Below are positions 463 to 57,926 of a stretch of DNA of 64,000 bases, one piece after another. This stretch comes from Chthoniobacterales bacterium. Lineage in GTDB: Bacteria > Verrucomicrobiota > Verrucomicrobiia > Chthoniobacterales > UBA6821. The stretch lies in assembly GCA_049282095.1 (NCBI GenBank), contig JBAPTI010000031.1:11419-75418 (forward strand), in the 5' to 3' direction. The notes under the pieces were generated by a model. The model did not search any database. It was not told the DNA's origin and saw only the letters and a program-made list of their open reading frames with translations. The first letter of the stretch is position 1. Each line of letters starts with the position of its first letter. The position numbers and the translations under genes were made by a program.

Positions 463-564
463 TTACAGGGATGAAGGGGATGAAGGAGATAGAAGCAGAA
501 GAGTCCAGAAAGGTTTGGAATCTTAGAATTTCTCCATCCCTTGTATCCCCTTCATCCCTGTGAA
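463..564. repeat. Hairpin element copy A with ~29-nt inverted arms (TTACAGGGATGAAGGGGATGAAGGAGAT ... ATCCCTTGTATCCCCTTCATCCCTGTGAA)
   Basis: The inverted arms are read directly from the sequence. A second copy with near-identical arms lies at 10427-10516. This copy sits between two convergent genes. Confidence 0.8.
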
Positions 565-1463: not shown

Positions 1464-2225
1464 CTATTTCCGGAAGCCGGGGAGGATCTTGTTGAGTTCG
1501 TTTCCAAGTTGCTTGGCTCCCTGCTGCTGAAGTTGCTGGAGTCCCTGCTTGGCAAGGGCGTTGATACCCTCCTTCGCGGCGGCATTAATGAGGGGGGTGA
1601 TGATCTGCATGGCGACATCACGGGCCGAGATGCCCTTGCCGGCGGTGCCGATGTTCTGCAGGCGGATATCCGGGATGGAGATGGTCTGGTTGACTTTCTG
1701 GTCGAGGGCGCTGGCGGCAAGATGAACCTTCGTTCCCGAGATCACGACTTCCTTGATGACAAATTTCTTGGAGGAGGCTTCCTGGGGCGGTTTCTCCTCC
1801 TTGGTCTTGGAGGAGGATCCGGCGGACTGGATGTTCTGCATGAGTTTCCCGAGGTTGTTACCCGACGGAGTTCCGATCAGGGCGATCTCGGGGCCGCGGA
1901 TGATCACGGAATTCACGACGATCGGATCCTTGAGGAGCGTCTCCTTGTCGACGCTGACAGCGATGCTTCCGAGTTTCAGGGCGAAGGGACCCTTGTAGCC
2001 TTCGGGATTGCCGATCACGAAGCCGCTGAGTGCACCGCTTCCGGAGAATGGGGAGAGCCTTGCCGACGCCAACCGCACATCGGTCCTGGTGATGGTGGGG
2101 CCGACGGTCTCGACCGCCTTTTTGATCAGTGAGTTCAGCGAGAAGTAGAGATAGCCGATCGTCCCGATGAACAGGACAACGACCACGGCGACGAGGGAGA
2201 GGAGGATTTTTTTCATGGGATTCAA
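1464..2225 (-). CDS. Hypothetical membrane-anchored protein (N-terminal TM helix)
   Basis: 253-aa ORF with an N-terminal hydrophobic helix (ILLSLVAVVVVLFIGTIGYLYF). I do not recognise a family with confidence. Confidence 0.55.
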   Translation of the reverse strand: MNPMKKILLSLVAVVVVLFIGTIGYLYFSLNSLIKKAVETVGPTITRTDVRLASARLSPFSGSGALSGFVIGNPEGYKGPFALKLGSIAVSVDKETLLKDPIVVNSVIIRGPEIALIGTPSGNNLGKLMQNIQSAGSSSKTKEEKPPQEASSKKFVIKEVVISGTKVHLAASALDQKVNQTISIPDIRLQNIGTAGKGISARDVAMQIITPLINAAAKEGINALAKQGLQQLQQQGAKQLGNELNKILPGFRK

Positions 2226-2277
2226 TCAGCGCTTTTAGTGGATCTAGTAGAGGGGAGCTTTGGGATGGATGGCAAGG

Positions 2278-2934
2278 TCAGTCTTTCCGGAAGAACTTGT
2301 CCGGTGCATCGACGCTGGGGCAGAGGGAGCGGAGTTCGCATGCGGCGCAGTCGGGGTTGCGCGCCTTGCAGCGACGGCGGCCGTGCCAGATGAGCCAGTG
2401 GGAGAGAAGGGTCCATTGTTCCCGAGGGAAAAGTTTCATCAGGTCCTGCTCGACCTTGACCGGATCGGAGTTTGTGGTGAGTCCGAGTCGCAGGGAGAGG
2501 CGTCCGACATGGGTATCGACGACGACCCCCTCGTTGATCCCGAAGGCATTTCCGAGGACGACGTTGGCGGTCTTGCGACCCGCGCCGGGAAGGGCGGAGA
2601 GTTCGGCGATGCTGCGAGGGATCTCACCCCCATGCCGCTCCATCAGGGCGGCGCCCATGCCTCGGATCGACTTGGCCTTGTTCCGGTAGAATCCCGTGGA
2701 GCGGACGATCTCCTCGAGTTCCTCCTGAGGGATGGCCGCGTAGTCGGCGGCGGTCTTGCAGCGCTTGAAGAGTGCCTTGGTCACCATATTGACCCGGACG
2801 TCGGTGCACTGGGCGGAGAGGATCGTTGCGACGAGCAACTCGAGGGGATTTGAGAAATCGAGCTCGCAGTGGGCGTCCGGATAGATCCCGGGAAGTTCGG
2901 TGGCGAGGGTGTTGGTGCGTTCCTTGCGTGTCAT
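2278..2934 (-). CDS. nth: Endonuclease III (DNA glycosylase/AP lyase)
   Basis: HhH-GPD region LPGAGRKTANVVL and a C-terminal 4Fe-4S Cys cluster (CKARNPDCAACELRSLC), with Nth-like sequence along its full length. Confidence 0.9.
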   Translation of the reverse strand: MTRKERTNTLATELPGIYPDAHCELDFSNPLELLVATILSAQCTDVRVNMVTKALFKRCKTAADYAAIPQEELEEIVRSTGFYRNKAKSIRGMGAALMERHGGEIPRSIAELSALPGAGRKTANVVLGNAFGINEGVVVDTHVGRLSLRLGLTTNSDPVKVEQDLMKLFPREQWTLLSHWLIWHGRRRCKARNPDCAACELRSLCPSVDAPDKFFRKD

Positions 2935-8657: not shown

Positions 8658-9634
8658 CCTCCGCCACCTTCCCCGAGATCCGAGAAGCGCTCCTAGGCAA
8701 GCGGCGCATCTTGGTCGCCAGCCATCTCCGTCCCGATGCCGACGCCTACGGATCGACGATAGCCGCAGCCCTCTGGCTCCTTTCCGAGGGGCATGAAGTG
8801 ACCGCCTGGAACCAGGACGGAATGCTGGAGAAGTTCTCCTTTCTTCCCTCCTCGGAGCTGGTGCTGCCACCCCCTGCCACGCCCGTCACCTTCGACGCGG
8901 TGCTCGCGCTCGATACCTCGGTGAAGAACCGGCTGGGGACCGTGATCGACGCCGTGGCCGACACGCCACTCTGGATCTGCATCGATCACCACCGCAGCAA
9001 TGAGGGGTATGCCGACCTGAATCTCATCGACGCCACCCGTCCCGCCACTGGTCAAATCCTGGCCGAGGCTTTCATGCAATCCGGCATCACGATCACTCCG
9101 GAGATGGCCACCAATCTCTTCGCGGCGATCTCGACCGACACCGGTTCCTTCCAGTACGAGGGGACCAGCGCGGAAACCTTTGAGGTGGCAGCGGCGCTGA
9201 TCCGTCGCGGGGTGAATGTCGCTACGCTCTCCCGCTCCCTCTACGAGAGCCAGTCGAAGCGTCGCCTCGACCTCCTGAAGCACGCCCTCGTGAATGCCCG
9301 CTTCAGCTGTCAGGATCGTGTAGCGAGCTTTTCCCTCTCTCTGGCCGACGTGCAGGCCCTCGGGGTCATCCCGGAGGACAATGAGGGGATCATCGATCAC
9401 CTGCGCTCCGTCGACACCGTCAAGGCGGCCGCCTTCTTCGAGGAGCTTCCCGACGGGATGATCCGCCTCAGCCTCCGCTCCAAGGACTCCAGCTTCGATG
9501 CCTGCGCCCTCTGCGGGAAGTTCGGTGGCGGTGGTCACCTGATGGCTTCGGGGGCGCGGATCAATGGATCGCTTGCCGAGGTGGAGGCCCGTGTCCTTGC
9601 CGCGATCTGCGCCGAGATCGAGTCTGCCGACTAA
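8654..9634 (+). CDS. nrnA: DHH-family phosphoesterase (NrnA-like oligoribonuclease/pAp phosphatase)
   Basis: DHH motif (CIDHHRSN) and DHHA1 GGGH motif (FGGGGHLMASG). There is a 4-nt overlap with rbfA. Confidence 0.8.
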   Translation: MTSATFPEIREALLGKRRILVASHLRPDADAYGSTIAAALWLLSEGHEVTAWNQDGMLEKFSFLPSSELVLPPPATPVTFDAVLALDTSVKNRLGTVIDAVADTPLWICIDHHRSNEGYADLNLIDATRPATGQILAEAFMQSGITITPEMATNLFAAISTDTGSFQYEGTSAETFEVAAALIRRGVNVATLSRSLYESQSKRRLDLLKHALVNARFSCQDRVASFSLSLADVQALGVIPEDNEGIIDHLRSVDTVKAAAFFEELPDGMIRLSLRSKDSSFDACALCGKFGGGGHLMASGARINGSLAEVEARVLAAICAEIESAD

Positions 9635-10381: not shown

Positions 10382-10426
10382 GAAATTCTCGCGCAGAGAC
10401 GCAGAGGCGCGGAGAGATGAAATTGA

Positions 10427-10516
10427 TTCACAGGGATGAAAGGGATGAAGGAGATATCATGAGCGCTATCCCCTTAACTCTTTCCCTATCCCTTGTATCC
10501 CCTTCATCCCTGTGAA
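10427..10516. repeat. Hairpin element copy B (TTCACAGGGATGAAAGGGATGAAGGAGAT ... ATCCCTTGTATCCCCTTCATCCCTGTGAA)
   Basis: The arms are near-identical to copy A (463-564) but the interior is unrelated. The right arm contains the predicted ribF GTG start (10512). Confidence 0.8.
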
Positions 10517-11441
10517 TATTCTTCACTCCATAGAGGATCTTGCCGGCCTAAAGGGCCCGATTGTCCTCGCGGCGGGGACGTTCGACGGGGTGCATCTCGG
10601 CCATCAGGCCCTGATCCGTCGAGCGATGGAGGAGGCCTCTGCCTGCGGAGGGACAGCCGTGGTGATGACCTTCGACCGCCATCCGGCATCGCTACTCCGT
10701 CCCGAGAAAGCCCCGAAACTCCTGACTCGAAACGACGGGAAGGCCGCCCTGCTCGAGGGGATGGGTGTTCCGGCGTTGCTGTTGCTTGAGTTCACCAGTG
10801 ATCTGGCCCGTGTTCCCGCGCGGAACTTCATTGCGTCACTCGTTGCGGCATGCTCTCCGCTTCATGCTTTTTGTGTCGGGCGCCAGTGGACTTTCGGGAA
10901 GGGCGGTGAGGGGAACGTAGCCCTCTTGAAAGAACTGGGTGCGGAGCGGACATTCGAGGTCATCCAGATTGATCCCGTGATGGCCGCTGATTTACCGATC
11001 AGCAGCACCCGGATCAGGAAGGCCATCGCCTCCGGTGATTTCGCCGAGTCATCCGCCTGCCTCGGTCGACCGTTTCTCCTCACGGGCAAGGTGGTGAGCG
11101 GGGCCGGTCTGGGTGTCACGATCGGCTTTCCGACGGCGAATCTCAGCGTGGAAGGGATGCAACTTCCCCCTGACGGTGTCTATGCCGTGAGAGTCCATCG
11201 TGAGGGGAGGGTTTATCCTGGAGTCGCCAATATCGGGGTCCGTCCCACGGTGGATACCACCTCTAGCAAGCGAACCGTAGAGGTTCATCTCTTCGATTGT
11301 GCAGAAGACCTCGTCGGAAAAGAACTCTCCTTGGAATTCGTGAAGTTCCTCCGGGGGGAGGAAAAGTTTTCCGGTCTGGATGCCCTCAAGGGACAGATTG
11401 CCAAGGATTGCGAGCGGGCAAGAGCGATTCTCAGTCCTTGA
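10512..11441 (+). CDS. ribF: Bifunctional riboflavin kinase / FAD synthetase
   Basis: N-terminal FAD synthetase motif AAGTFDGVHLGHQ and a C-terminal riboflavin kinase domain (GFPTANL...VEVHLFD). The GTG start is uncertain by a few codons. Confidence 0.88.
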   Translation: MNILHSIEDLAGLKGPIVLAAGTFDGVHLGHQALIRRAMEEASACGGTAVVMTFDRHPASLLRPEKAPKLLTRNDGKAALLEGMGVPALLLLEFTSDLARVPARNFIASLVAACSPLHAFCVGRQWTFGKGGEGNVALLKELGAERTFEVIQIDPVMAADLPISSTRIRKAIASGDFAESSACLGRPFLLTGKVVSGAGLGVTIGFPTANLSVEGMQLPPDGVYAVRVHREGRVYPGVANIGVRPTVDTTSSKRTVEVHLFDCAEDLVGKELSLEFVKFLRGEEKFSGLDALKGQIAKDCERARAILSP

Positions 11442-14829: not shown

Positions 14830-15303
14830 ATGACACTCTCCGAACGCATTGACCACGACCTCAAGGAAGCCATGAAAGCCCGCGATGCCGCCAAGCTCGG
14901 CACGCTTCGCATGGTGAAGAGCGCCTTCAAGTATGCGGCCATCGAGAAGAGCGGCGCCGACGCCGTCGTGGATGACGAGGTTGCCACCTACGTGCTGCGC
15001 AAGCAGATCAAGCAGCGGGAGGATGCGGCCGCCGGATTCGAGCAGGGAGGCCGTCCCGAGATGGCTGAAAAGGAGAAGGCCGAAATTGCCATTCTTGTTG
15101 CCTACCTCCCGGCGGCCCTTTCGACCGAGGAACTTGCCGCTATTGTCCGTGACGCGATTGCCGAAGTGGGAGCTTCCTTGGGAACACCAGAAGGTGTTGG
15201 CAAAGCCCAGATGGGAGCAGTCATGAAGGCCGCCCAGGCCAAGGCCGCCGGACGCGCCGATGGCAAGAGTCTCAGCGCAGAGGTTCAGAAGCAGCTTTCC
15301 TGA
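14830..15303 (+). CDS. GatB/YqeY domain protein
   Basis: MTLSERIDHDLKEAMKARD...LRMVKSA...REDAAAGFEQGGRPEMAEKEKAEIAIL is typical of the YqeY family. The start is set at ATG 14830. Confidence 0.8.
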   Translation: MTLSERIDHDLKEAMKARDAAKLGTLRMVKSAFKYAAIEKSGADAVVDDEVATYVLRKQIKQREDAAAGFEQGGRPEMAEKEKAEIAILVAYLPAALSTEELAAIVRDAIAEVGASLGTPEGVGKAQMGAVMKAAQAKAAGRADGKSLSAEVQKQLS

Positions 15304-15328
15304 TCCCGGGGGACTTTTCCCCTTCCTA

Positions 15329-15604
15329 GGGAAGCGCTGATTAAATCCCATGAAGGCCGCTGAAGAGCATTTGCTGATTTTTGAAGGCGCGAGTGCTGGG
15401 CGATACCCGCAGCGGTCTCGCCCGAGCGAGCAACGCGGCAAAAATCAACAAATGGTTTCAGCCCTGCGGGTTGCGGAGATAACAGGCCGGGGTTTGCGTT
15501 GGCTTGGCACTTACAGCCCGCTGCGGGGATGCTCGTGCCAAGCCGCCTTGCCCGCGGCCCATTCTTCCCGCAACGGCCTCTATGCGATTTAATCAGCGTT
15601 TCCC
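15329..15604 (+). mobile_element. MITE, full copy (276 bp), 19-nt TIRs, TA flanks
   Basis: Left TIR GGGAAGCGCTGATTAAATC and right TIR GATTTAATCAGCGTTTCCC. A TA sits at 15327-28 and at 15605-06. The element is near-identical to 27240-27516 and 52515-52790. Strand denotes an arbitrary element orientation. Confidence 0.85.
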
Positions 15605-15611
15605 TAACGAC

Positions 15612-21960: not shown

Positions 21961-22064
21961 CGGCCGGGGGCTGTTTAGGCTTGGCGCTTTGCTTGCCCGG
22001 TCGCTGCTTCGCATCCGCTACGGCTTTCCGCAACGGGCTCTATGCGATTTAATCAGCGGTTCCC
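21961..22064 (+). mobile_element. MITE fragment (one end only, module-containing subtype)
   Basis: It ends in CTCTATGCGATTTAATCAGCGGTTCCC and contains the GCTTGCCCGGTCGCTGCTTCGCATCCGCTACGG module also present in the 43899-44433 and 57698-57795 copies. Confidence 0.75.
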
Positions 22065-26534: not shown

Positions 26535-27238
26535 CGCGCGAAGTAGCTGAGATTCTCAAGCTCGATGGCGAGGTTGACGTTGTTCACGGCAACGGTCTCG
26601 GGCAACTGGAGGAGCGTGGGCGAGAAGTTGAGGAGGGCATGGATACCGCTTCCGACGAGATGTTCGGCAACCCGCTGGGCCTCCTCCCCTGGGACGCAGA
26701 GGATCGCCATGCGGATGTCATGCTGCCTGATGACCCTGCGCATCTCCTCCATCCGCTGGACTTCAATCCGACCCCTCTGTGCTTTTTTCGGCTTCTTGTC
26801 GAAGGCCGCGATGATCTCGAACCCCTCCTTGGCAAATCCCCTGTAGCTCAGGAGCGCCTGTCCGAGGTTACCGGCACCGACCAAAATGACAGGTTGGAGG
26901 CTCGCGCGCCCCAGAATTTCCTCAAGGCGGTTACGGAGCAGGATGACTTCGTAGCCGGTGCCGCGTTTCCCAAGCGGGCCGCAGCAGGCGAGATCCTTGC
27001 GAAGTTGGGCCGGTTGCACGCCGGCCACGCCGGCGAGAGCCGTTGAGGAGACGATGCTTGTGCGGTTGGCCACCATGAGGCCCAGGCATCGCAGATAGAG
27101 GGAGAGCCGGTAGACGGTCTTCTTGGGAATCTCCCCGGCGGAATGGGCCTGTCGCTCATGATGCCTGACCCGCGGTACGTGTTCCTGCCGGGGGGATTTC
27201 CCGGTCACCTTGAGTGAACGATGGCCTTCGCGGCTCAT
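26531..27238 (-). CDS. rex: Redox-sensing transcriptional repressor Rex
   Basis: wHTH (IPKKTVYRLSLYLRCL) plus Rossmann VILVGAGNLGQALL. The start ATG 27236-38 is supported by the reconstructed ATGA overlap with miaB. The ORF-track N-terminal extension lies in the MITE. Confidence 0.85.
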   Translation of the reverse strand: MSREGHRSLKVTGKSPRQEHVPRVRHHERQAHSAGEIPKKTVYRLSLYLRCLGLMVANRTSIVSSTALAGVAGVQPAQLRKDLACCGPLGKRGTGYEVILLRNRLEEILGRASLQPVILVGAGNLGQALLSYRGFAKEGFEIIAAFDKKPKKAQRGRIEVQRMEEMRRVIRQHDIRMAILCVPGEEAQRVAEHLVGSGIHALLNFSPTLLQLPETVAVNNVNLAIELENLSYFAR

Positions 27239-27239
27239 A

Positions 27240-27516
27240 GGGAAGCACTGATTAAATCGCATAGAGGCCGTTGCGGGAAGAATGGGCCGTGGGCAAGGCG
27301 GCTTGGCGCGAGCATCCCCGCAGTGGGCTGTAAGCGCCAAGGCAACAAAGCCCCCCGGCCGGTTATCTCCGCAACCCGGAGGGCTGAAGCCATTTGTCGA
27401 TTTTTGTGGCGTTGCTCGCTCGGGCGAGACCGCTGCGGGTATCGCCCAGCACTCGCGCCTTCAAAAATCAGCAAATGCTCTTCAGCGGCCTTCATGGGAT
27501 TTCATCAGCGCTTCCC
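27240..27516 (-). mobile_element. MITE, full copy (277 bp), TA flanks, inserted at the miaB/rex junction
   Basis: TIRs GGGAAGCACTGATTAAATC and GATTTCATCAGCGCTTCCC. A TA sits at 27238-39 and at 27517-18. The interior is collinear with 15329-15604 in reverse orientation. Confidence 0.88.
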
Positions 27517-28944
27517 TAAGGTCTCCGATCCCTCTCCCAGTATGGCGGGATCACCATAGAGGGTGGAGGCGCTGGCGGAGGTGATCTCGACATCGAAGAT
27601 CTGACCATGGAAGCGGCTCCCTCCCTCCAAGATCACGATCTTGTTGGTGCGGGTGCGACCGGCCAGTCGGGAGGGGTCGTTCCTGCTCGGGCCCTCGCAG
27701 AGGATTTGCTGCCTGGTGCCGACGCATGCCTCGAGGTGGCGTGAGGCGGAGGCGTTCACCACCGCGAGGAGGTCCTGATTGCGGAACTCCTTCACCTCTT
27801 CGGAAAGCTGTCCGTCCATCACGGCGGCGGGTGTGTCGCCGCGCTTGGAGTAGCGGAAGACAAAGGCACCGTCGAAGCCGATCTCCTCGGCAAGGTCGCG
27901 GGTGGCCCTGTAATCCTCATCCGTTTCGCCCGGGAAGCCGACGATGATGTCGGTGCTGACTGCGATGCCGGGGCGGGCAGCCCGGAGATCCGCCACCAGC
28001 TTTCGGAAAGAGGCTGCCGTGTAGGGACGGTGCATGGCCTTGAGGATCCGGTCGCTGCCAGACTGGAGGGGAAGGTGGACATGCTCCATGAGTTTCGGAA
28101 GCCGCGCGAAGCACTCCACGAGATCCTTGCGGAATCCCATCGGATGGGGGGAGGTGAAGCGGATGCGTTCGATTCCCTCGACGGCGTTGAGCGCCTCCAG
28201 GAGTTGCACGAAGGGGCTCTTGCCATCCACCTTGGGGAATTCGTGGCGTCCGTAGAGATTGACGATCTGGCCGAGCAGCGTCACCTCCTTGATCCCTCTG
28301 CCGGCGAGGGTGCGGGCTTCCTCGACGATTTCTGCGATCGGTCGGCCGCGCTCGGGTCCGCGCGTCGTCGGGACAATGCAGAAGGTGCAGTGCATGTTGC
28401 ATCCCTGCATGATTGAGATGAACGCGGTGGCGGCCTTTTTCTCGGTGGGGAGATGCTCGCGGATGGTGTTCTGCGATCCCTCCTCGGCGGCGATGTCGAC
28501 GATCGGGGCCATTGGGGCCATTGGGGCGATCTGATTGATGCTTCCCCCCAGTTCGGTTGCATCCTCGGCGGCAAAGGCCTCTTCACGACGGCGGAGCGCC
28601 TCTTCCACATGGTCGGCGACACGGTGAAACTTCTGGGTCCCCACCACGAGATCGACATGGGGTGAGCGGTTCCCCAGATCATCCCCCAGGCGCTGCGCCA
28701 TGCATCCCATGTAGCCCAGGACGAGCTTCGGCTTCTCCCGGCGGAGCTTGCGGAGCATGCCCATCTTCCCGATCGCTTTCTGCTCGGCCATGTCGCGGAC
28801 GCTGCACGTGTTGAGCAGGATCACGTCGGCATCCCGCTCGTTGTCAACGAGACGGTGACCGCGGTCCTGAAGATCGCGCGCCACCTGTTCGGAGTCGCGC
28901 TCGTTCATCTGGCAACCGTAGGTCTTGATGAAGACGCTGGGCAT
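27505..28944 (-). CDS. miaB: tRNA-i6A37 methylthiotransferase MiaB
   Basis: MTTase N-domain (FIKTYGCQMNERDSE), radical-SAM GCNMHCTFCIVP and a TRAM domain. The last 3 codons plus the stop (GKR*) are encoded by the MITE TIR. The start is set at ATG 28944. Confidence 0.9.
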   Translation of the reverse strand: MPSVFIKTYGCQMNERDSEQVARDLQDRGHRLVDNERDADVILLNTCSVRDMAEQKAIGKMGMLRKLRREKPKLVLGYMGCMAQRLGDDLGNRSPHVDLVVGTQKFHRVADHVEEALRRREEAFAAEDATELGGSINQIAPMAPMAPIVDIAAEEGSQNTIREHLPTEKKAATAFISIMQGCNMHCTFCIVPTTRGPERGRPIAEIVEEARTLAGRGIKEVTLLGQIVNLYGRHEFPKVDGKSPFVQLLEALNAVEGIERIRFTSPHPMGFRKDLVECFARLPKLMEHVHLPLQSGSDRILKAMHRPYTAASFRKLVADLRAARPGIAVSTDIIVGFPGETDEDYRATRDLAEEIGFDGAFVFRYSKRGDTPAAVMDGQLSEEVKEFRNQDLLAVVNASASRHLEACVGTRQQILCEGPSRNDPSRLAGRTRTNKIVILEGGSRFHGQIFDVEITSASASTLYGDPAILGEGSETLGKR

Positions 28945-43815: not shown

Positions 43816-43898
43816 GGGTTGAACGTAATCCATACTTCCGATTCCGCCATCGAAAAGATTCGTGAATCGCGGGGATTCTCCGACAGGGAAGATCCTTA

Positions 43899-44433
43899 AA
43901 GCGCTGATTAAATCGCATAGAGGCCGTTGCGGGAAGCCGTAGCGGATGCGAAGCAACGACCGGGCAAGCCATGGGCCGCGGGCAAGGCGGCTTCGCGGGC
44001 GCATCCCCGCAGTGGGCTGCCGTAACGGATGCGAAGCAACGGCCGGGCAAGCAAAGCGCCAAGCCAACACAGTTGGCCCCCGTGCCACGCCACGAAGCCA
44101 AAGGCTTTGTGGCCCCCGGCTGGTTATCTCCGCAACCCGGAGGGCTGAAGCCAGTTGTCGATTTTTGCCTCGCCGTCTCCCGACGGTCTCGTCCTCCGGA
44201 CTGCTTCGCAGGCTACGACGCGGCTCCCGCCGCTCGTCGTTGCGGCGATGCTCGCTCGGGCGAGACCGCTGGGGGTATTGACTCGCTCGCTCCCGCTCGG
44301 CTCGCCCTGACGGGTTTGCCTCCGGCAAATCTACCCAAGCCGCACCCGCAGCTACGTGTTGCCCAGCACTCGCGCCTTCAAAAATCAGCAAATGCTCTTC
44401 AGCGGCCTTCATGGGATTTAATCAGCGTTTCCC
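43899..44433 (-). mobile_element. MITE, mosaic long copy (~535 bp) with at least 5 internal insert modules
   Basis: It shares both ends and the backbone with the 276-bp copies. It carries two direct copies of the 33-nt module CCGTARCGGATGCGAAGCAACGRCCGGGCAAGC plus other inserts. The left TIR lacks the terminal GGG. Confidence 0.8.
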
Positions 44434-44474: not shown

Positions 44475-44559
44475 GCCGGCGTGGCGGAATTGGCAGACGC
44501 GCCGGACTCAAAATCCGGTATCCTCTAAAGATGTGTCGGTTCGAACCCGACCGCCGGTA
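44475..44559 (+). tRNA. tRNA-Leu (anticodon CAA), class II with long variable arm
   Basis: 7-bp acceptor stem GCCGGCG/CGCCGGT (one G-U pair), D-arm GCGGAATTGGCAGACGC, anticodon stem-loop CCGGA-CTCAAAA-TCCGG, a 16-nt variable region, T-arm GTCGG-TTCGAAC-CCGAC and discriminator A. No CCA is encoded. Confidence 0.9.
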
Positions 44560-50151: not shown

Positions 50152-52515
50152 ATGAATTCCCCAGTTCCCATGACTCCTGCCGCGAATCATCCTGCCCCGG
50201 GGCATGGCCATCACGCCCATGCGGGCGGATTTGACTGGCGGGAGTATTACTTTGCGCTGAAGGCCCGTGCATGGATCGTCATTGCGTGCGTGATCCTTGC
50301 GACGCTCTGGGGAGTCTTCTCTGCGGCGACCCAGCAGGGACTCTACACCGCGCGCTGCGTCCTCTTCATCGAACAGGTCAAGAGCCGGGTGCTCAACACC
50401 AAGGTGGAGGATGTCCGCGATGACCAGATCAAGTCGATCGACATGATCAACACCCTCGTCGACCTCCTCCGCAGCTATCCCTTCGCGCTTCGTGTGGTCA
50501 ACCACCTCCAGCTTGCCCGCGACCGCGAGTTTCTGGCCGCGGTCGGACTTTCCGGGAAAGAGACATCCCCGGAACGCGCCGCCGGCGCCCTTGCGAGGAT
50601 GGTCAGCCCCAGCTACCGGCTCAACACCCGCCTCATCGACATCAACCTCACCACCCGGAACCCCTCCCTCTCCGTCAAGCTGGCCAATGCCTACGCCGAG
50701 GAATATCTCCGCTACATCCATGACCAGAGGGCCGAGGCCACCCGTTCCGCCAGCACCTTCCTCATGGAAGAGTCCGACAGGTTGCGCAAGAAGATGAAGG
50801 CATCCGAAGAGGGGATGCAGAACTTCCGCGAGCGCGAGCGTGCGGCATCCATGGAGTCGATGCTGCTCGAGGCGCAGAACCAGCTCACCCAGCTCTCCGC
50901 CCGCCAGAGCGCCATCCAGTCCAAGCTCACCCAGATCAACAGTGACCTCGAGATCGCCCGCGCGAACAAGGGGAAGACCGAGGAACTCCTCCGCCTTCCC
51001 AGCGTCGCCGGAGAGCCCAAGGTTGCCGCGCTGGTCGCCCAGCAGTCGAGCCTGGACAAGCAGTTCATCCTCATCCAGCAACGCTACCGCGCCAAGCACC
51101 CCGCCTACATCAACATCAAGACCCAGCTCGACCTCGGCAAGTCCGAGCTGGACAAGGTGCTCAACGACATCGTCGGCCTTCTCGATTCCATCCGCAGCAG
51201 CCTGCTGGCCCAGCAGGCCGCCGCCAATGCCGAGCGCGAGAGCGCCGAGAAGCGCCTGCTCGAGGTCACCAGCAAGTCCATCGAGTACAACGACCTCAAG
51301 CGCGAGTTGGAGAGCGACACCGCCCTCTACGGCGCCGTCATTGGACGCATCAAGGAAGTCGATGTCACCAAGGAACTCTCCGAATCCCCCGTCGTGATCC
51401 AGGAAAAGGCGAGCGGAGCCTTCCCTGTCAGCAAGCCCCCCCTCAAGATCCTCCTCCAGGCCATGCTATCCGGATTGGCCGTGGGTGTCGGCATCGTCCT
51501 TGCCCTGCACAAGCTTGATACCAGCACCAAGAGCGTCGATCAGCTCGAGCAGCTCACCGGTATCGACGTCGCCGCGGCCATCCCGCAGATCGGCGGCAAT
51601 GCCGCCGCCCGCTTCGGCATCTTCACCAAGGAACAGCAGCAGCAACTGCTCGGATCCTGGAAATCGGCCAAGACCATGATCCTTGACGCATCGGTGCCTC
51701 CGCGTGCGCGACTCTCGCGGATCCACGAGATCCTCAGTCCAGCCATCGCCATGATCGCCCACCCCCACATCTCCACCGTGCTTCCGCGCGGCGGCGAGTT
51801 GGTGGTGAAACAGGACCGCAGCGGCGTCGTGGCGGAAGCCTTCCGCTCGCTTCGCGCCAGTGTGGCCATGAACGCCCGCGTCGAGAGCCAGCGCTCCTTC
51901 CTCCTGACCAGCGCCATCCCGTCGGAGGGCAAGTCCTTCTGCACCTCCAACTTCGCCGTCACCCTCGCACAGCAGGGACTCAGGACTCTCCTCATCGATG
52001 CCGATCTCCGCAAGCCCACCATCTCCGGCATCTTCTTCGGGATGAACCGCAAGCCCGGACTCACCGAAGTCCTGATCGGATCGGCCTCATTGACGGATGC
52101 CGTGCACTCCTCGGGCGTCGAGGGACTCTCGATCCTCACCGCCGGGGGGCGCTCCTCCAATCCCTCCGAACTACTGGCCGGAAAGCCCTTCCGTGATTTC
52201 ATGGTCGAGGCCCTCAGGCAGTATGACCGCGTCGTCATTGATTCCGCCCCCATCCTGGCTGTGAGCGACACGCTGCTTCTCGCCCCCTCCGTCGATGTCG
52301 TCTGCCTCGTAGTCCGCGCCTTCATGACCCCGCGCAAGATGATCCAGCGGGCTCTCAAGTCGCTTCAGGATATCCATGTGAAGCCCGCCGGACTTGTCTT
52401 CAACTGCATCCCTGCCGGCAGCGAGGCCTATTCCTACTCCGGCAAGTATTACGGCTCCTACGGCAGCAAAGGAGTGTATGGAAGTCCGGTTGAAGGGGAA
52501 AAAGCCGAAGGTTAA
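50152..52515 (+). CDS. Polysaccharide co-polymerase / BY-type tyrosine autokinase (Wzc/GumC-like)
   Basis: N-terminal Wzz-type TM and coiled-coil periplasmic domain. The C-terminal kinase has Walker A SAIPSEGKS, Walker B VVIDSAP and a Tyr-rich tail (YSYSGKYYGSYGSKGVYG). Confidence 0.88.
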   Translation: MNSPVPMTPAANHPAPGHGHHAHAGGFDWREYYFALKARAWIVIACVILATLWGVFSAATQQGLYTARCVLFIEQVKSRVLNTKVEDVRDDQIKSIDMINTLVDLLRSYPFALRVVNHLQLARDREFLAAVGLSGKETSPERAAGALARMVSPSYRLNTRLIDINLTTRNPSLSVKLANAYAEEYLRYIHDQRAEATRSASTFLMEESDRLRKKMKASEEGMQNFRERERAASMESMLLEAQNQLTQLSARQSAIQSKLTQINSDLEIARANKGKTEELLRLPSVAGEPKVAALVAQQSSLDKQFILIQQRYRAKHPAYINIKTQLDLGKSELDKVLNDIVGLLDSIRSSLLAQQAAANAERESAEKRLLEVTSKSIEYNDLKRELESDTALYGAVIGRIKEVDVTKELSESPVVIQEKASGAFPVSKPPLKILLQAMLSGLAVGVGIVLALHKLDTSTKSVDQLEQLTGIDVAAAIPQIGGNAAARFGIFTKEQQQQLLGSWKSAKTMILDASVPPRARLSRIHEILSPAIAMIAHPHISTVLPRGGELVVKQDRSGVVAEAFRSLRASVAMNARVESQRSFLLTSAIPSEGKSFCTSNFAVTLAQQGLRTLLIDADLRKPTISGIFFGMNRKPGLTEVLIGSASLTDAVHSSGVEGLSILTAGGRSSNPSELLAGKPFRDFMVEALRQYDRVVIDSAPILAVSDTLLLAPSVDVVCLVVRAFMTPRKMIQRALKSLQDIHVKPAGLVFNCIPAGSEAYSYSGKYYGSYGSKGVYGSPVEGEKAEG

Positions 52516-52790
52516 GGAAGCGCTGATTAAATCGCATAGAGGCCGTTGCGGGAAGAACTGGCCGCGGGCAAGGCGGCTTGGCACGAGCATCCCCGCAGCG
52601 GGCTGTAAGTGCCAAGCCAACGCAGCCCCCGGCCTGTTATCTCCGCAACCCGCAGGGCTGACGTCATTTGTCGATTTTTGCGGCGTTGCTTGCTAGGGCG
52701 AGACCACTGCGGGTATCGCCCAGCGCTCGCGCCTTCAAAAATCAGCAAATGCTCTTCAGCGGCCTTCATGGGATTTAATCAGCGTTTCCT
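52515..52790 (-). mobile_element. MITE, full copy (276 bp), TA flanks
   Basis: TIRs AGGAAGCGCTGATTAAATC and GATTTAATCAGCGTTTCCT. A TA sits at 52513-14 and at 52791-92. The first element base completes the TAA stop of the Wzc-like gene. Confidence 0.88.
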
Positions 52791-52847
52791 TAAGGAACCG
52801 CAGTTCCCTGCTCTCACTTTCTCCTTGGTTCTTTCTTCCCCTTCAGG

Positions 52848-52885
52848 GTTTTAGCCTTTAGCCTTCGGCCTTTAAACCTTTCCCC
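52848..52885 (+). repeat. Period-7 leader array GTTTTAG CCTTTAG CCTTCGG CCTTTAA ACCTTTC CCC directly abutting the uxs ATG
   Basis: Read directly from the sequence. The same GTTTTAG-initiated array type occurs at 54625, 56319 and 57816. Confidence 0.75.
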
Positions 52886-53821
52886 ATGCGTATCCTCATC
52901 ACCGGCGGAGCCGGATTCCTAGGTTCCCACCTCTGTGACCGCCTCATCGAGCAGGGTCACGACATCATCTGCCTCGACAACTTCTTCACCGGTCGCAAGG
53001 CCAACATTCAGCATCTCGTCGGCAATCCCCACTTCGAACTCGTCCGTCACGACGTGATCGACCCGTTCAAGTTCGAGGTCGATCGCATCTACAACCTCGC
53101 CTGCCCCGCTTCCCCTCCTCACTACCAGTACAACCCTATCAAGACCATGAAGACCTCCGTGGTGGGGGCCATCAACTGCCTCGGCCTCGCCAAGAGGGTC
53201 AAGGCACGCGTCTTCCAAGCCTCCACCTCCGAGGTTTACGGGGATCCCAACGTCCATCCCCAGCCCGAGGCCTACTGGGGCCATGTGAACCCCATCGGAC
53301 TACGCTCCTGCTACGACGAGGGGAAGCGCGCGGCCGAGACCCTCTTCTTCGACTATCACCGCGAGAACGGGGTCGACATCCGCGTCATCCGCATCTTCAA
53401 CACCTACGGCCCCCGCATGCTCCCCGACGACGGACGCGTCGTCTCCAACTTCATCGTCCAGGCACTTCAGGGCAAGGACCTCACCGTCTACGGAGAGGGC
53501 TCCCAGACACGCTCCTTCTGCTATGTCGACGACCTCGTCGACGGCTTCATGCGCTTCATGGAGCAGGAGAAGATCGTCGGCCCCATGAACCTCGGTAACC
53601 CCGGCGAGTTCACCATGCTCCAGCTCGCCGAACTCGTCCTCAAGAAGGTAGGCGGCAAGAGCAAGATCACCCACCTCCCGCTTCCTTCCGACGATCCGAA
53701 GCAGCGCCGTCCCGACATCACCCTCGCCAAGGAAACCCTCGGCTGGGAACCGAAAGTCCCTCTCGAAGCCGGCATTGAGAAGACCATCGCGTATTTCAGC
53801 GAAGCGCTTAAGAAAGGCTAA
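52886..53821 (+). CDS. uxs: UDP-glucuronate decarboxylase (UDP-xylose synthase)
   Basis: SDR with [14 protein letters not shown], the catalytic YDEGKR motif, and UXS-like sequence along its full length. Confidence 0.9.
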
Positions 53822-53910
53822 AGGCGAAAGGCTAAAGGCTAAAGGCTAAAGGCTAAAGGCTAAAGGCTAAAGGCTAAAGGCTAAAGGCTAAAGGCGAAAG
53901 GCGAAAGGAT
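53813..53910 (+). repeat. Heptanucleotide tandem array, 14 units (AAAGGCT x10, AAAGGCG x3, AAAGGAT x1)
   Basis: Units were counted from 53813 in steps of 7. The array starts in the last codons of uxs and contains its TAA stop (53819-21). Confidence 0.95.
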
Positions 53911-54113
53911 GGAACCAACGGGCGTTCCAAGTCTCTTGGAAGAGATGAGGAGAAATTTCCGTAGGCAAGCCCGTGAGGGCGGCACGGTTTTGCGAGTTCA
54001 AAGTGCCGTTCAACCGAGCGGGAGCTATCGAGTGCAAAACATGCGCGGAAGAGCCCGCGAAGCGGGGCCCGGAGTTCGGGTTGAAAGGCTCTCTTAAAAA
54101 AACGCCGTCTGCA

Positions 54114-57697: not shown

Positions 57698-57795
57698 GGG
57701 AGCCGCTGATTAAATCGCATGGAAGCCGTTGCGGGAAGCTGTAACGGATGCGAAGCAACGGCCGGGCAAGCCATGGACCGCATCCCTGCGGCTTG
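57698..57795 (-). mobile_element. MITE fragment (one end, module-containing subtype)
   Basis: GGGAGCCGCTGATTAAATCGCATGGAAGCCGTTGCGGGAAG followed by the CTGTAACGGATGCGAAGCAACGGCCGGGCAAGC module. The other end is absent. Confidence 0.75.
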
Positions 57796-57926
57796 GTGCT
57801 CGACTCGGTTTCCCCGTTTTAGCCTTAAGCCTTTAAACTTTAGCCTTTCGCTTTTGACGGCACTTGCAGGGAGGATCTAAAGAGATTCCAATTGATGGTT
57901 TACTTTAGGGCGATATAAATAAAGCG

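What the first reader, a model, noticed from the sequence alone, without database searches (positions are those of the whole stretch)
15329..15604. TA-duplicating ~276-bp MITE family: six copies in 64 kb, with no cognate transposase in the window
There are three full copies: 15329-15604, 27240-27516 (inverted) and 52515-52790 (inverted). By eye they differ only at scattered positions; I did not compute identity. They end in 19-nt terminal inverted repeats (GGGAAGCGCTGATTAAATC / GATTTAATCAGCGTTTCCC), with imperfect symmetry extending to about 35 nt. Each full copy is flanked by TA on both sides. A 535-bp mosaic copy (43899-44433) and two one-ended fragments (21961-22064, 57698-57795) share the ends. 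By my coordinates the copies total about 1.57 kb, and all are intergenic. Short TIRs plus TA duplication is the known signature of IS630/Tc1-mariner-mobilised MITEs such as the neisserial Correia elements. Assigning this element to that class is inference. I cannot tell whether the family has already been catalogued.
Basis: partly seen in the sequence, partly recalled or inferred. Interest (0 to 1): 0.8.

Follow-up and report, generated by a model that had tools for sequence, protein, structure and literature searches.

The report
Miniature IS5-type transposon repeat family
A roughly 274-bp non-coding, hairpin-forming "hitch-hiker" transposon is scattered through genomes of uncultured freshwater Verrucomicrobia; it is real and has moved, but it duplicates four bases (YTAR) and has the ends of IS5-family insertion sequences, not the TA/IS630 signature first proposed, so it is an ordinary kind of element in a little-studied host.

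Summary
The window has three full copies (93-94.5% identical), one 538-bp mosaic copy, two 5'-truncated fragments and one extra 23-nt end remnant. The family occurs at 73 or more places in six freshwater Chthoniobacterales/Spartobacteria MAGs, at 62 independent sites, with filled and empty orthologous sites.

It is a MITE, but not a TA-duplicating IS630/mariner type. Each matches the base three positions outside the opposite end rather than being complementary to the other. The duplication is therefore 4 bp, YTAR (identical on both sides at 28 of 62 sites against 10.4 expected). The element proper is GGAAGCGCTGATTAAATC...GATTTAATCAGCGCTTCC.

YTAR, "GG" ends and a 4-bp duplication are the IS5-subgroup signature. 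Full 1.2-kb insertion sequences with 17-18 of 18 identical terminal repeats and perfect YTAR duplications exist in plasmids and in over 120 metagenome contigs. Three of those contigs come from relatives of the host clade. Their transposases score 335-358 bits on NF033581 (IS5 family).

No transposase lies in the window or in the 550 kb of host DNA examined. The 80-codon ORF is not coding, and no Rfam family matches. This is a new member of a known kind. The labile internal hairpin modules are the only odd feature.

The parts
15330..15603 (+). Full copy 1, element proper (274 bp), running GGAAGCGCTGATTAAATC...GATTTAATCAGCGTTTCC. The flanking 4-mers are CTAG (15326-15329) and CTAA (15604-15607). 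It lies 26 nt after the yqeY-like stop codon (15301-15303) and 4 nt before the ispD start codon (15612).
27241..27515 (-). Full copy 2 (275 bp). The flanking 4-mers are TTAG (27516-27519) and CTAT (27237-27240). The TGA inside the left repeat (27505-27507) is now the stop codon of the miaB-like ORF, and a rex-like gene lies downstream. The closest MAG (L070) has the left end of a copy at this site, cut by a contig end.
52516..52789 (-). Full copy 3 (274 bp) with a perfect TTAA/TTAA duplication (52512-52515 and 52790-52793). The left-hand TTAA contains the TAA stop codon of the Wzz/AAA gene 50152-52515.
43896..44433 (-). Mosaic copy (about 538 bp): the core plus optional modules M1 (81-84 nt), M2 (75), M3 (39-40) and two copies of M4 (33). 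Its right end is degenerate. It lies 42 nt from tRNA-Leu(CAA) at 44475-44559.
21961..22063 (+). 5'-truncated copy: the right arm with an M4 module and the right terminal repeat.
57699..57795 (-). 5'-truncated copy: the right arm with an M4 module and the right terminal repeat.
2212..2236 (-). Solo remnant of the left terminal repeat (AAGCGCTGATTGAATCCCATGAA). It abuts the ATG of a minus-strand membrane-protein ORF. The remnant sequence is missing from the orthologous region of L068.
2320..2326 (.). Empty site. The orthologous position in MAG locus L068 (877-1185) carries a 309-bp copy. The insert in L068 equals the element plus the duplication.

Best explanation
This is a family of non-autonomous DNA transposons (MITEs) whose ends are those of IS5-family, IS5-subgroup insertion sequences. 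The element proper is about 274 bp. It is bounded by 18-nt terminal inverted repeats, GGAAGCGCTGATTAAATC, with imperfect symmetry to about 35 nt. It encodes nothing. Inferred mechanism: a DDE transposase of an IS5-type element, supplied in trans, binds the two repeats, excises or copies the element, and inserts it into the tetranucleotide YTAR (CTAG, CTAA, TTAG or TTAA), which is duplicated on both sides. YTAR sites are scarce in this 59% G+C genome (about 2.8 per kb), and 18% of them are the stop codons of long ORFs. Copies therefore end up between genes, often exactly at a stop codon, which the duplication preserves. The interior is a Y-shaped pair of long hairpins. It carries optional 33-84-nt hairpin modules that are gained or lost. 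The flanking CTAG decays to TTAG or CTAA by single transitions. Shown: the repeat family, its ends, the 4-bp duplication, presence/absence polymorphism, the identity of its ends with those of IS5-family elements, and the lack of coding signal. Inferred: mobilisation in trans by such a transposase, and which particular IS does it.
For: There are 65 two-ended copies at 62 independent sites in the window plus six MAGs. The first and last bases are not complementary beyond chance (30 observed, 32 expected). After removing orthologous duplicates, the two 4-mers are identical at 28 of 62 sites against 10.4 expected (p<5e-5), and they are almost all YTAR. Most mismatched pairs differ by one transition, for example CTAG/CTAA five times and CTAG/TTAG three times. 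Filled and empty sites were found: L068 against window position about 2320, and L025/L049 against L002. Full ISs with the same ends include a Marinobacter plasmid element (L079 2514-3742, 1229 bp, left repeat GGAAGCGCTGATCAAATC, 17 of 18 identical, CTAG/CTAG) and a Ralstonia megaplasmid element (L077 1307-2513, TTAG/TTAG). The pattern 'repeat + 112-142 nt + F-L-x-x-M-E-x-x-x-P-W' found over 120 metagenome stretches. Of these, 87 had both ends, 1185-1260 bp long, flanked by YTAR. Three such ISs sit on contigs whose flanking genes are 68-78% identical in DNA to the host MAGs. They are L087 (TTAG/TTAG; right repeat GGAATCGCTGATTAAATCGC, 19 of 20 identical to the MITE right end), L200 (CTAG/CTAG; GGAAACGCTGATTAAATC) and L203. 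Their transposases score 335-358 bits on NF033581, IS5 family (cut-off 140), and match DDE_Tnp_1 + DUF772. The YTAR duplication of IS5 is documented in PMC5009759. Position 5 of the repeat varies in both the MITE copies (G48/C9/A7/T1) and the ISs (A/G/C).
Against: No IS5-type transposase was found in the window or in the 550 kb of host-clade loci held (tblastn), so mobilisation within these genomes is not demonstrated. No IS found shares more than about 21-23 nt with the MITE ends, so no direct parent is identified. Only 45% of copies keep identical 4-mers on both sides, and the copies closest to the consensus are not better preserved (7 of 21, 11 of 21 and 12 of 23 by divergence tercile). Empty sites cannot separate a 2-bp from a 4-bp duplication by length alone. 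The copies were ascertained with an exact 29-mer, so copy numbers are lower bounds and conservation of positions 31-59 is an artefact of the search.
Confidence: 0.85

Rival explanations
1. It is a TA-duplicating MITE mobilised by an IS630/Tc1-mariner transposase, like Correia elements. The element would include the terminal R...Y bases, and only TA would be duplicated.
For: TA flanks both sides in 43 of 65 copies, and the wider target looks like NTAN/CTAG, which IS630 also prefers (the IS630 preference is from my own knowledge). Empty-site lengths are compatible with either model.
Against: The supposed terminal bases are polymorphic (G43/A22 and C34/T28). They correlate with the opposite outer flank rather than with each other. 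The ends match IS5-family ISs, not IS630 ISs.
Confidence: 0.04
2. It is primarily a structured RNA, or an RNA-level regulatory module such as a 3'-UTR stabiliser or processing site. On this reading its spread by transposition is secondary and its structure is under selection.
For: The fold is strong: -86.4 kcal/mol as DNA, z=-8.2. The consensus structure has 100 pairs, and 11 of them show compensatory changes. Paired columns vary 2.5 times less than unpaired ones, and derived G-U cells outnumber A-C cells 26 to 13 (p=0.053). Genes reading into the element enter through the left end 35 times and through the right end 19 times. Copy 1 lies inside a co-oriented yqeY-ispD interval.
Against: No Rfam family matches at gathering score or at E<0.1. 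Both strands fold equally well, at -135.7 and -135.1 kcal/mol, as expected for a DNA palindrome. Compensatory cells may reflect two subfamilies, or quasi-palindrome correction by template switching (my own knowledge). No promoter-like or terminator-like sites were found. The orientation and G-U biases are weak, uncorrected, and partly built into the method.
Confidence: 0.1
3. It is a small protein-coding gene family: an 80-aa ORF from the ATG at element position 22 to the TAA in the right repeat. Gene callers have annotated it this way.
For: The ORF is open in most copies, and module lengths are multiples of 3. 128 clusters of 46-140-aa 'hypothetical proteins' match it.
Against: Variation by codon position is 134/88/114, with no third-position excess. 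The synonymous count is the same in another frame, 114 against 112. The -2 frame is open over all 92 codons, and the +2 frame over its last 73. The same 33-nt module is read in two different frames at its two insertion points. There is no Pfam domain and no longer homologue.
Confidence: 0.02
4. It is a dead relic. The family was spread by an IS5-type transposase that these genomes have since lost, and the copies now change only by mutation, recombination and hairpin deletion.
For: No transposase was found in 614 kb of host-clade DNA. Mean divergence from the consensus is 4.9%. Only 45% of duplications are intact. Truncated copies and 27-nt repeat-only remnants exist.
Against: Nearly all insertion sites differ between related MAGs (62 sites for 65 copies), so activity continued after these lineages split. 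IS5-type elements with matching ends and perfect duplications occur on contigs of related Verrucomicrobiota. ISs typically fail to assemble into MAGs, so their absence is weak evidence.
Confidence: 0.3

Closest known systems
IS5 and the IS5 subgroup of the IS5 family (E. coli IS5; NCBIfam NF033581)
   Same: Both have a 4-bp target duplication with consensus YTAR (PMC5009759). Both have ends beginning GGAAG (IS5's GGAAGGTGCGAA is recalled from my own knowledge). The terminal inverted repeats are 16-18 nt. Full ISs with 17-18 of 18 identical ends carry transposases 49-52% identical to a recalled E. coli InsH sequence and well above the NF033581 cut-off.
   Different: The element has no transposase and is 274 bp rather than about 1.2 kb. 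Its interior is unrelated to any IS found, with similarity ending after about 21-23 nt.
MITEAba12 of Acinetobacter (mobilised by ISAba12)
   Same: It is a bacterial MITE assigned to its mobiliser by identity of the terminal repeats plus duplication length. Only 40% of its copies retain their duplications (PMC6382973), comparable with 45% here.
   Different: MITEAba12 is 113 bp with a 9-bp duplication, and its IS is co-resident and has been shown to mobilise it. Here the duplication is 4 bp (YTAR), the interior is much longer and structured, and no co-resident IS was found.
Correia/NEMIS elements of Neisseria
   Same: Both are abundant intergenic MITEs that form hairpins and have TA in their flanks. 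Neither has a known transposase in the host. Both have size variants caused by internal indels (PMC10969869; the size variants are from my own knowledge).
   Different: Correia duplicates TA (my own knowledge). This family duplicates YTAR and has IS5-type ends.
ERIC and pneumococcal BOX elements
   Same: They have a modular build: a conserved hairpin core with optional internal inserts at fixed positions (ERIC), or variable numbers of modules (BOX). Both points are from my own knowledge.
   Different: They differ in sequence, ends and host. Neither ERIC nor BOX has been tied to an IS5-type transposase.

Membership tests
MITE (non-autonomous DNA transposon) | Terminal inverted repeats at both ends | tested here: met
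   The repeats are 18 nt, with extension to about 36 nt at 86% complementarity. They are conserved in 65 copies.
MITE (non-autonomous DNA transposon) | Target-site duplication | tested here: met
   The 4-bp YTAR flanks are identical at 28 of 62 sites against 10.4 expected. Mismatches are mostly single transitions.
MITE (non-autonomous DNA transposon) | Small, multicopy, with no transposase gene | tested here: met
There are 73 or more loci in six MAGs. The ORF shows no coding signal.
MITE (non-autonomous DNA transposon) | Presence/absence at orthologous sites | tested here: met
   L068 is filled where window position about 2320 is empty, at 80% flank identity. L025 and L049 are filled where L002 is empty.
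MITE (non-autonomous DNA transposon) | A transposase that moves it in trans | not testable with these tools
   This needs a transposition assay. Only sequence correspondence of the ends is shown.
IS5 family, IS5 subgroup (as source of the ends) | 4-bp duplication of YTAR | tested here: met
   The reference behaviour of IS5 is in PMC5009759.
IS5 family, IS5 subgroup (as source of the ends) | Ends identical to those of transposase-bearing IS5-family elements | tested here: met
   L079 matches 17 of 18, L200 17 of 18, L087's right repeat 19 of 20, and the L088/L102/L124/L127 left repeats 21 of 21. Over 120 metagenome hits were found.
IS5 family, IS5 subgroup (as source of the ends) | The transposase of those elements is an IS5-family DDE enzyme | tested here: met
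   NF033581 scores are 335-358 bits against a cut-off of 140. Pfam DDE_Tnp_1 + DUF772 also match.
IS5 family, IS5 subgroup (as source of the ends) | A cognate IS in the same genome | tested here: not met
   tblastn of three IS5 transposases against the window and L001-L073 found nothing at E<=0.1. Only partial genomes were available. Related-clade contigs do carry such an IS.
IS630/Tc1-mariner-mobilised MITE (Correia-like) | 2-bp TA duplication with fixed element termini | tested here: not met
   The terminal bases are polymorphic and co-vary with the opposite flank, not with each other.
IS630/Tc1-mariner-mobilised MITE (Correia-like) | Ends matching an IS630-family element | tested here: not met
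   Every transposase-bearing element found with these ends is IS5 family.
Known structured RNA family (Rfam 15) | Covariance-model match at gathering score | tested here: not met
   The whole window gave only tRNA-Leu. The local E-value search gave only a sub-threshold miRNA hairpin match, 20.8 bits against a gathering score of 63.
Protein-coding gene | Frame-specific purifying selection | tested here: not met
   The same module is read in two frames.

The most novel reading that the evidence does not exclude
The interior may be more than passive filler. The optional 33-84-nt hairpin modules could be precisely gained and lost at rates far above point mutation. One orthologous copy differs by three modules while every other base of the element is identical. 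The Y-shaped fold could also be maintained by selection on a transcript. Support for that: stems are 2.5 times more conserved than loops, there are compensatory pairs, and there are weak strand and G-U biases. Together this would make the family a modular, structure-selected RNA or DNA cassette that rides on IS5 ends.
Probability: 0.12. Interest if true: 0.55.

Novelty: new member of a known kind. Interest (0 to 1): 0.3.

Why it matters
It corrects the class of the element. That tells anyone annotating these genomes which transposase to look for: IS5-type, not IS630. It explains why the copies sit at gene ends, because YTAR includes the TAA and TAG stop codons. It flags at least 128 database 'hypothetical protein' clusters as translations of a non-coding repeat. 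It gives a marker for strain-level variation and for contig breaks in freshwater Chthoniobacterales MAGs. It also shows that one conserved IS5-type end sequence (GGAANCGCTGAT...) is shared by elements in Proteobacteria and Verrucomicrobia. None of this changes how MITEs are understood.

Tried and rejected
- **Recalled InsH.** tblastn of a recalled E. coli InsH sequence against all held DNA found nothing.
- **Peptide search for a parent.** Searching the 5.8-billion-protein database with the 80-aa ORF returned only short ORFs from MITE copies and no transposase sharing its N- or C-terminus.
- **Widely spaced repeat pairs.** In the window and MAG loci, only MITE-sized pairs appeared, plus one 2.2-kb pair made of two separate elements.
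- **Solo ends with a different interior.** L031 and L037 looked like IS ends but turned out to be a second small element nested in the TTAA of the repeat.
- **Empty sites as a 2-bp versus 4-bp test.** Both models predict the same inserted length.
- **Insertion at stop codons as a special preference.** 14 of 65 copies (21.5%) have a duplication coinciding with the stop codon of a long ORF. Among all YTAR sites the figure is 18%, so there is no enrichment.
- **Divergence from the consensus as an age proxy.** It does not predict duplication integrity.
- **The 1187-bp IS group with the best end match (21 of 21).** It sits in flanks of about 50% G+C, so it is not from the host clade.
- **Literature.** Searches for the end sequence and for Verrucomicrobia MITEs found no prior description.
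- **Promoter and terminator scan of copy 1.** Nothing was found.

Full report
**Observation.**
Reading the three stated intervals shows the same roughly 276-bp sequence in each. BLASTN of 15329-15604 against the window recovers:
- the two other full copies, at 94.5% and 93.2% identity (E=5e-122 and 3e-118);
- five collinear blocks inside 43899-44433;
- right-end matches at 22024-22064 and 57698-57738;
- an unlisted 23-nt match at 2212-2234.

The inverted repeats extend to about 36 nt at 86% complementarity. The window is 59.4% G+C. Rfam finds only a tRNA-Leu.

**Where it occurs.**
An exact 29-mer from the element was scanned against one genome per bacterial and archaeal species. It hit 73 stretches, all in six freshwater Verrucomicrobiota MAGs labelled Spartobacteria, Chthoniobacterales or Verrucomicrobiia:
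- 25 loci each in CANKJN01 and JBEIJN01;
- 15 in JBEAOJ01;
- 6 in JBIIGI01;
- 1 each in CAIJRY01 and DKEN01.

The window is 92-95% identical to CANKJN01 contigs, which have copies at the sites of copies 1 and 2, each cut by a contig end. I extracted 65 two-ended copies of 226-538 bp, with a mode of 276 (31 copies). They occupy 62 independent sites. Because the search pattern was exact, copy numbers are lower bounds, and the invariance of positions 31-59 is an artefact of ascertainment.

**The duplication is 4 bp, not TA.**
Across the 65 copies the flank pattern is Y-T-A-[R GGAAG ...
- They are not complementary to each other beyond chance (30 observed, 32 expected).
- The last base equals the base 3 nt left of the element in 44 of 65 copies (29.8 expected, p=1.5e-4).
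- The first base equals the base 3 nt right of it in 46 of 65 copies (32.9 expected, p=4e-4).

After removing orthologous duplicates, the left and right 4-mers are identical at 28 of 62 sites against 10.4 expected (p<5e-5). They are TTAG, CTAG, CTAA or TTAA in nearly all cases. Mismatched pairs mostly differ by one transition, typically CTAG on one side and CTAA or TTAG on the other. That fits mutational decay of a 4-bp duplication. The element proper is therefore GGAAGCGCTGATTAAATC...GATTTAATCAGCGCTTCC.

In the window, copy 3 has a perfect TTAA/TTAA. Copy 1 has CTAG/CTAA, and copy 2 has TTAG/CTAT. One caveat: intact duplications are no commoner among copies closest to the consensus. Overall integrity of 45% is close to the 40% reported for MITEAba12 (PMC6382973).

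**Mobility.**
L068 carries a 309-bp copy at a position where the window, with 80% identical flanks, has none. The inserted length equals the element plus the duplication. L025 and L049 are filled where the more distant L002 is empty. Copies have also landed inside other repeats whose paralogues lack them.

**Which transposase family.**
A scan of viral contigs with the 18-nt end found an 88-nt mini-element, TTAG|GGAAGCGCTGATTTAATC...TTTAATCAGCGTTTCC|TTAG. It lies in a Burkholderia pseudomallei prophage region. BLAST of that element against plasmids led to two complete insertion sequences annotated 'IS5 family transposase':
- Marinobacter sp. M3C plasmid NZ_CP092285.1: 1229 bp, left repeat GGAAGCGCTGATCAAATC (17 of 18 identical to the MITE end), CTAG/CTAG.
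- Ralstonia solanacearum AP024098.1: 1207 bp, GGAAACGCTGAT..., TTAG/TTAG.

Of these, 87 have a second end 1185-1260 bp away and YTAR flanks.

The transposases score 335-358 bits on NCBIfam NF033581 (IS5 family; cut-off 140). They carry DDE_Tnp_1 + DUF772. They are 49-52% identical to a recalled E. coli InsH sequence. IS5's YTAR duplication is documented (PMC5009759). That the IS5 subgroup has 'GG' ends and a 4-bp duplication is my recollection of the ISfinder table.

**Link to the host clade.**
None of these transposases is encoded in the window or in the 550 kb of MAG loci held. The window also has no IS-like repeat pair. Three IS-bearing contigs, however, have flanking genes 68-78% identical in DNA to the host MAGs:
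- L087: TTAG/TTAG; right repeat GGAATCGCTGATTAAATCGC, 19 of 20 identical to the MITE right end. Its flank matches L036 immediately next to a MITE copy.
- L200: CTAG/CTAG; GGAAACGCTGATTAAATC.
- L203.

Matching IS5-type elements therefore circulate in related Verrucomicrobiota. No IS shares more than about 21-23 nt with the MITE ends. The 1187-bp group with the best match sits in hosts of about 50% G+C. No direct parent is identified.

**Not a gene, not a known RNA.**
An ORF runs from an ATG inside the left repeat to the TAA inside the right repeat. It is open in most copies, and at least 128 clusters of short 'hypothetical proteins' in public databases are translations of it. It is not coding, for four reasons:
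- Variation by codon position is 134/88/114.
- The synonymous count is the same in another frame.
- The -2 frame is open throughout, and the +2 frame is open over its last 73 codons.
- One 33-nt module is read in two frames at its two positions.

No Rfam family matches.

**Anatomy of the interior.**
The element folds as a Y. An outer stem pairs 1-37 with 243-276, and there are a left arm (38-134) and a right arm (142-242).
- As DNA the fold is -86.4 kcal/mol, z=-8.2.
- The consensus has 100 pairs, 11 of them with compensatory changes.
- Both strands fold equally well.

Five optional modules sit at fixed points: 87, 81-84, 75, 39-40 and 33 nt, the last at two positions. Parts of them also occur outside the element. 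Recombination between the two 33-nt modules explains the short variants and the window's fragments. Repeat-only palindromes of 27 nt are the extreme deletion products.

**What remains odd.**
L025 and L049 are the same insertion in two MAGs. The flanks are about 98% identical, and the element core is identical apart from one or two bases at the module junctions, including its private SNPs. Yet the two differ by three modules. All module lengths are multiples of three without any coding signal. Stems vary 2.5 times less than loops. Weak strand biases exist. These points keep open a minority reading that the structure itself is selected or unusually labile.

**Context in the window.**
- Copy 1 lies between the yqeY-like gene and ispD, 4 nt before the ispD start codon.
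- Copy 2 truncates the last codons of a miaB-like ORF, which now stops at the repeat's TGA.
- Copy 3's TTAA contains the stop codon of a Wzz-like gene.
- The mosaic copy is 42 nt from tRNA-Leu.

Insertion at stop codons is no more frequent than expected from YTAR sites in general (21.5% against 18%).

**Verdict.**
This is a real, multi-copy MITE that has moved within this clade, and it has not been described in the literature I could search. It belongs with IS5-subgroup-derived MITEs rather than IS630/mariner ones. It is a new member of a known kind, of modest interest.

Noticed in passing
window 53813-53908 (also 52850-52874 and 57818-57848): There are 13.7 tandem copies of the heptamer AAAGGCT, and related heptamer runs elsewhere. 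Other heptamer arrays lie next to MITE copies in MAG loci L031 and L037.
   Followed up: partly
window 465-561 and 10426-10517: A second hairpin repeat family (ACAGGGATGAAGGGGATGAAGGAGATA and its inverse) is present twice in intergenic DNA.
   Followed up: no
window 53976-54013; L008, L018, L043, L057: A 38-nt hairpin, TTGAACGGCACTTTGCTCCCGCAAAGCAGTGCCGCCCT, is the 5' part of optional module M0. It also occurs on its own outside the MITE.
   Followed up: partly
L037 about 605-1000; L031 below about 560: A second small non-coding element of about 395 bp, with ends CCCGGATTATGCAAT...ATGCATATTTTGGG, is nested in the TTAA(A) inside a MITE terminal repeat. The CCC...GGG ends with a TTAA(A) duplication suggest a different transposase family.
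   Followed up: partly
L040 1-150; L049 4141-4288; L038 5477-5595; L203 9600-9747: This is the end of another insertion sequence. Its product ends ...RHLVENAFLHIKRWRGIATRYAKNASSFLAAIQIRCIALWALIS*, and the family was not tested. A MITE (L038) and a full IS5-type IS (L203) are each inserted in the YTAR exactly at its terminus.
   Followed up: partly
L005 530-556; L007 2161-2187: 27-nt palindromes consist of the two fused terminal repeats, flanked by CTAA and CTAG. They are probably hairpin-deletion remnants of full copies.
   Followed up: partly
L074 about 8985-9074 (Burkholderia pseudomallei prophage region): An 88-nt mini-element has the same 16-18-nt ends and a perfect TTAG/TTAG duplication. 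The same IS5-type end is therefore used by non-autonomous elements in a different phylum.
   Followed up: partly
L025 1298-1573 compared with L049 (reverse strand, positions 1285-1749): The same orthologous insertion is 276 bp in one MAG and 465 bp in another. They differ only by three internal modules. The cause could be module gain or loss, or an assembly effect; this is unresolved.
   Followed up: partly
window 2212-2236: A terminal-repeat remnant abuts the ATG of a minus-strand membrane-protein ORF, so the element's own ATG position coincides with the gene start. The remnant sequence is missing from the L068 orthologue.
   Followed up: partly
protein hits P0001-P0120: At least 128 clusters of 46-140-aa 'hypothetical proteins' in public databases are translations of this non-coding repeat.
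   Followed up: yes
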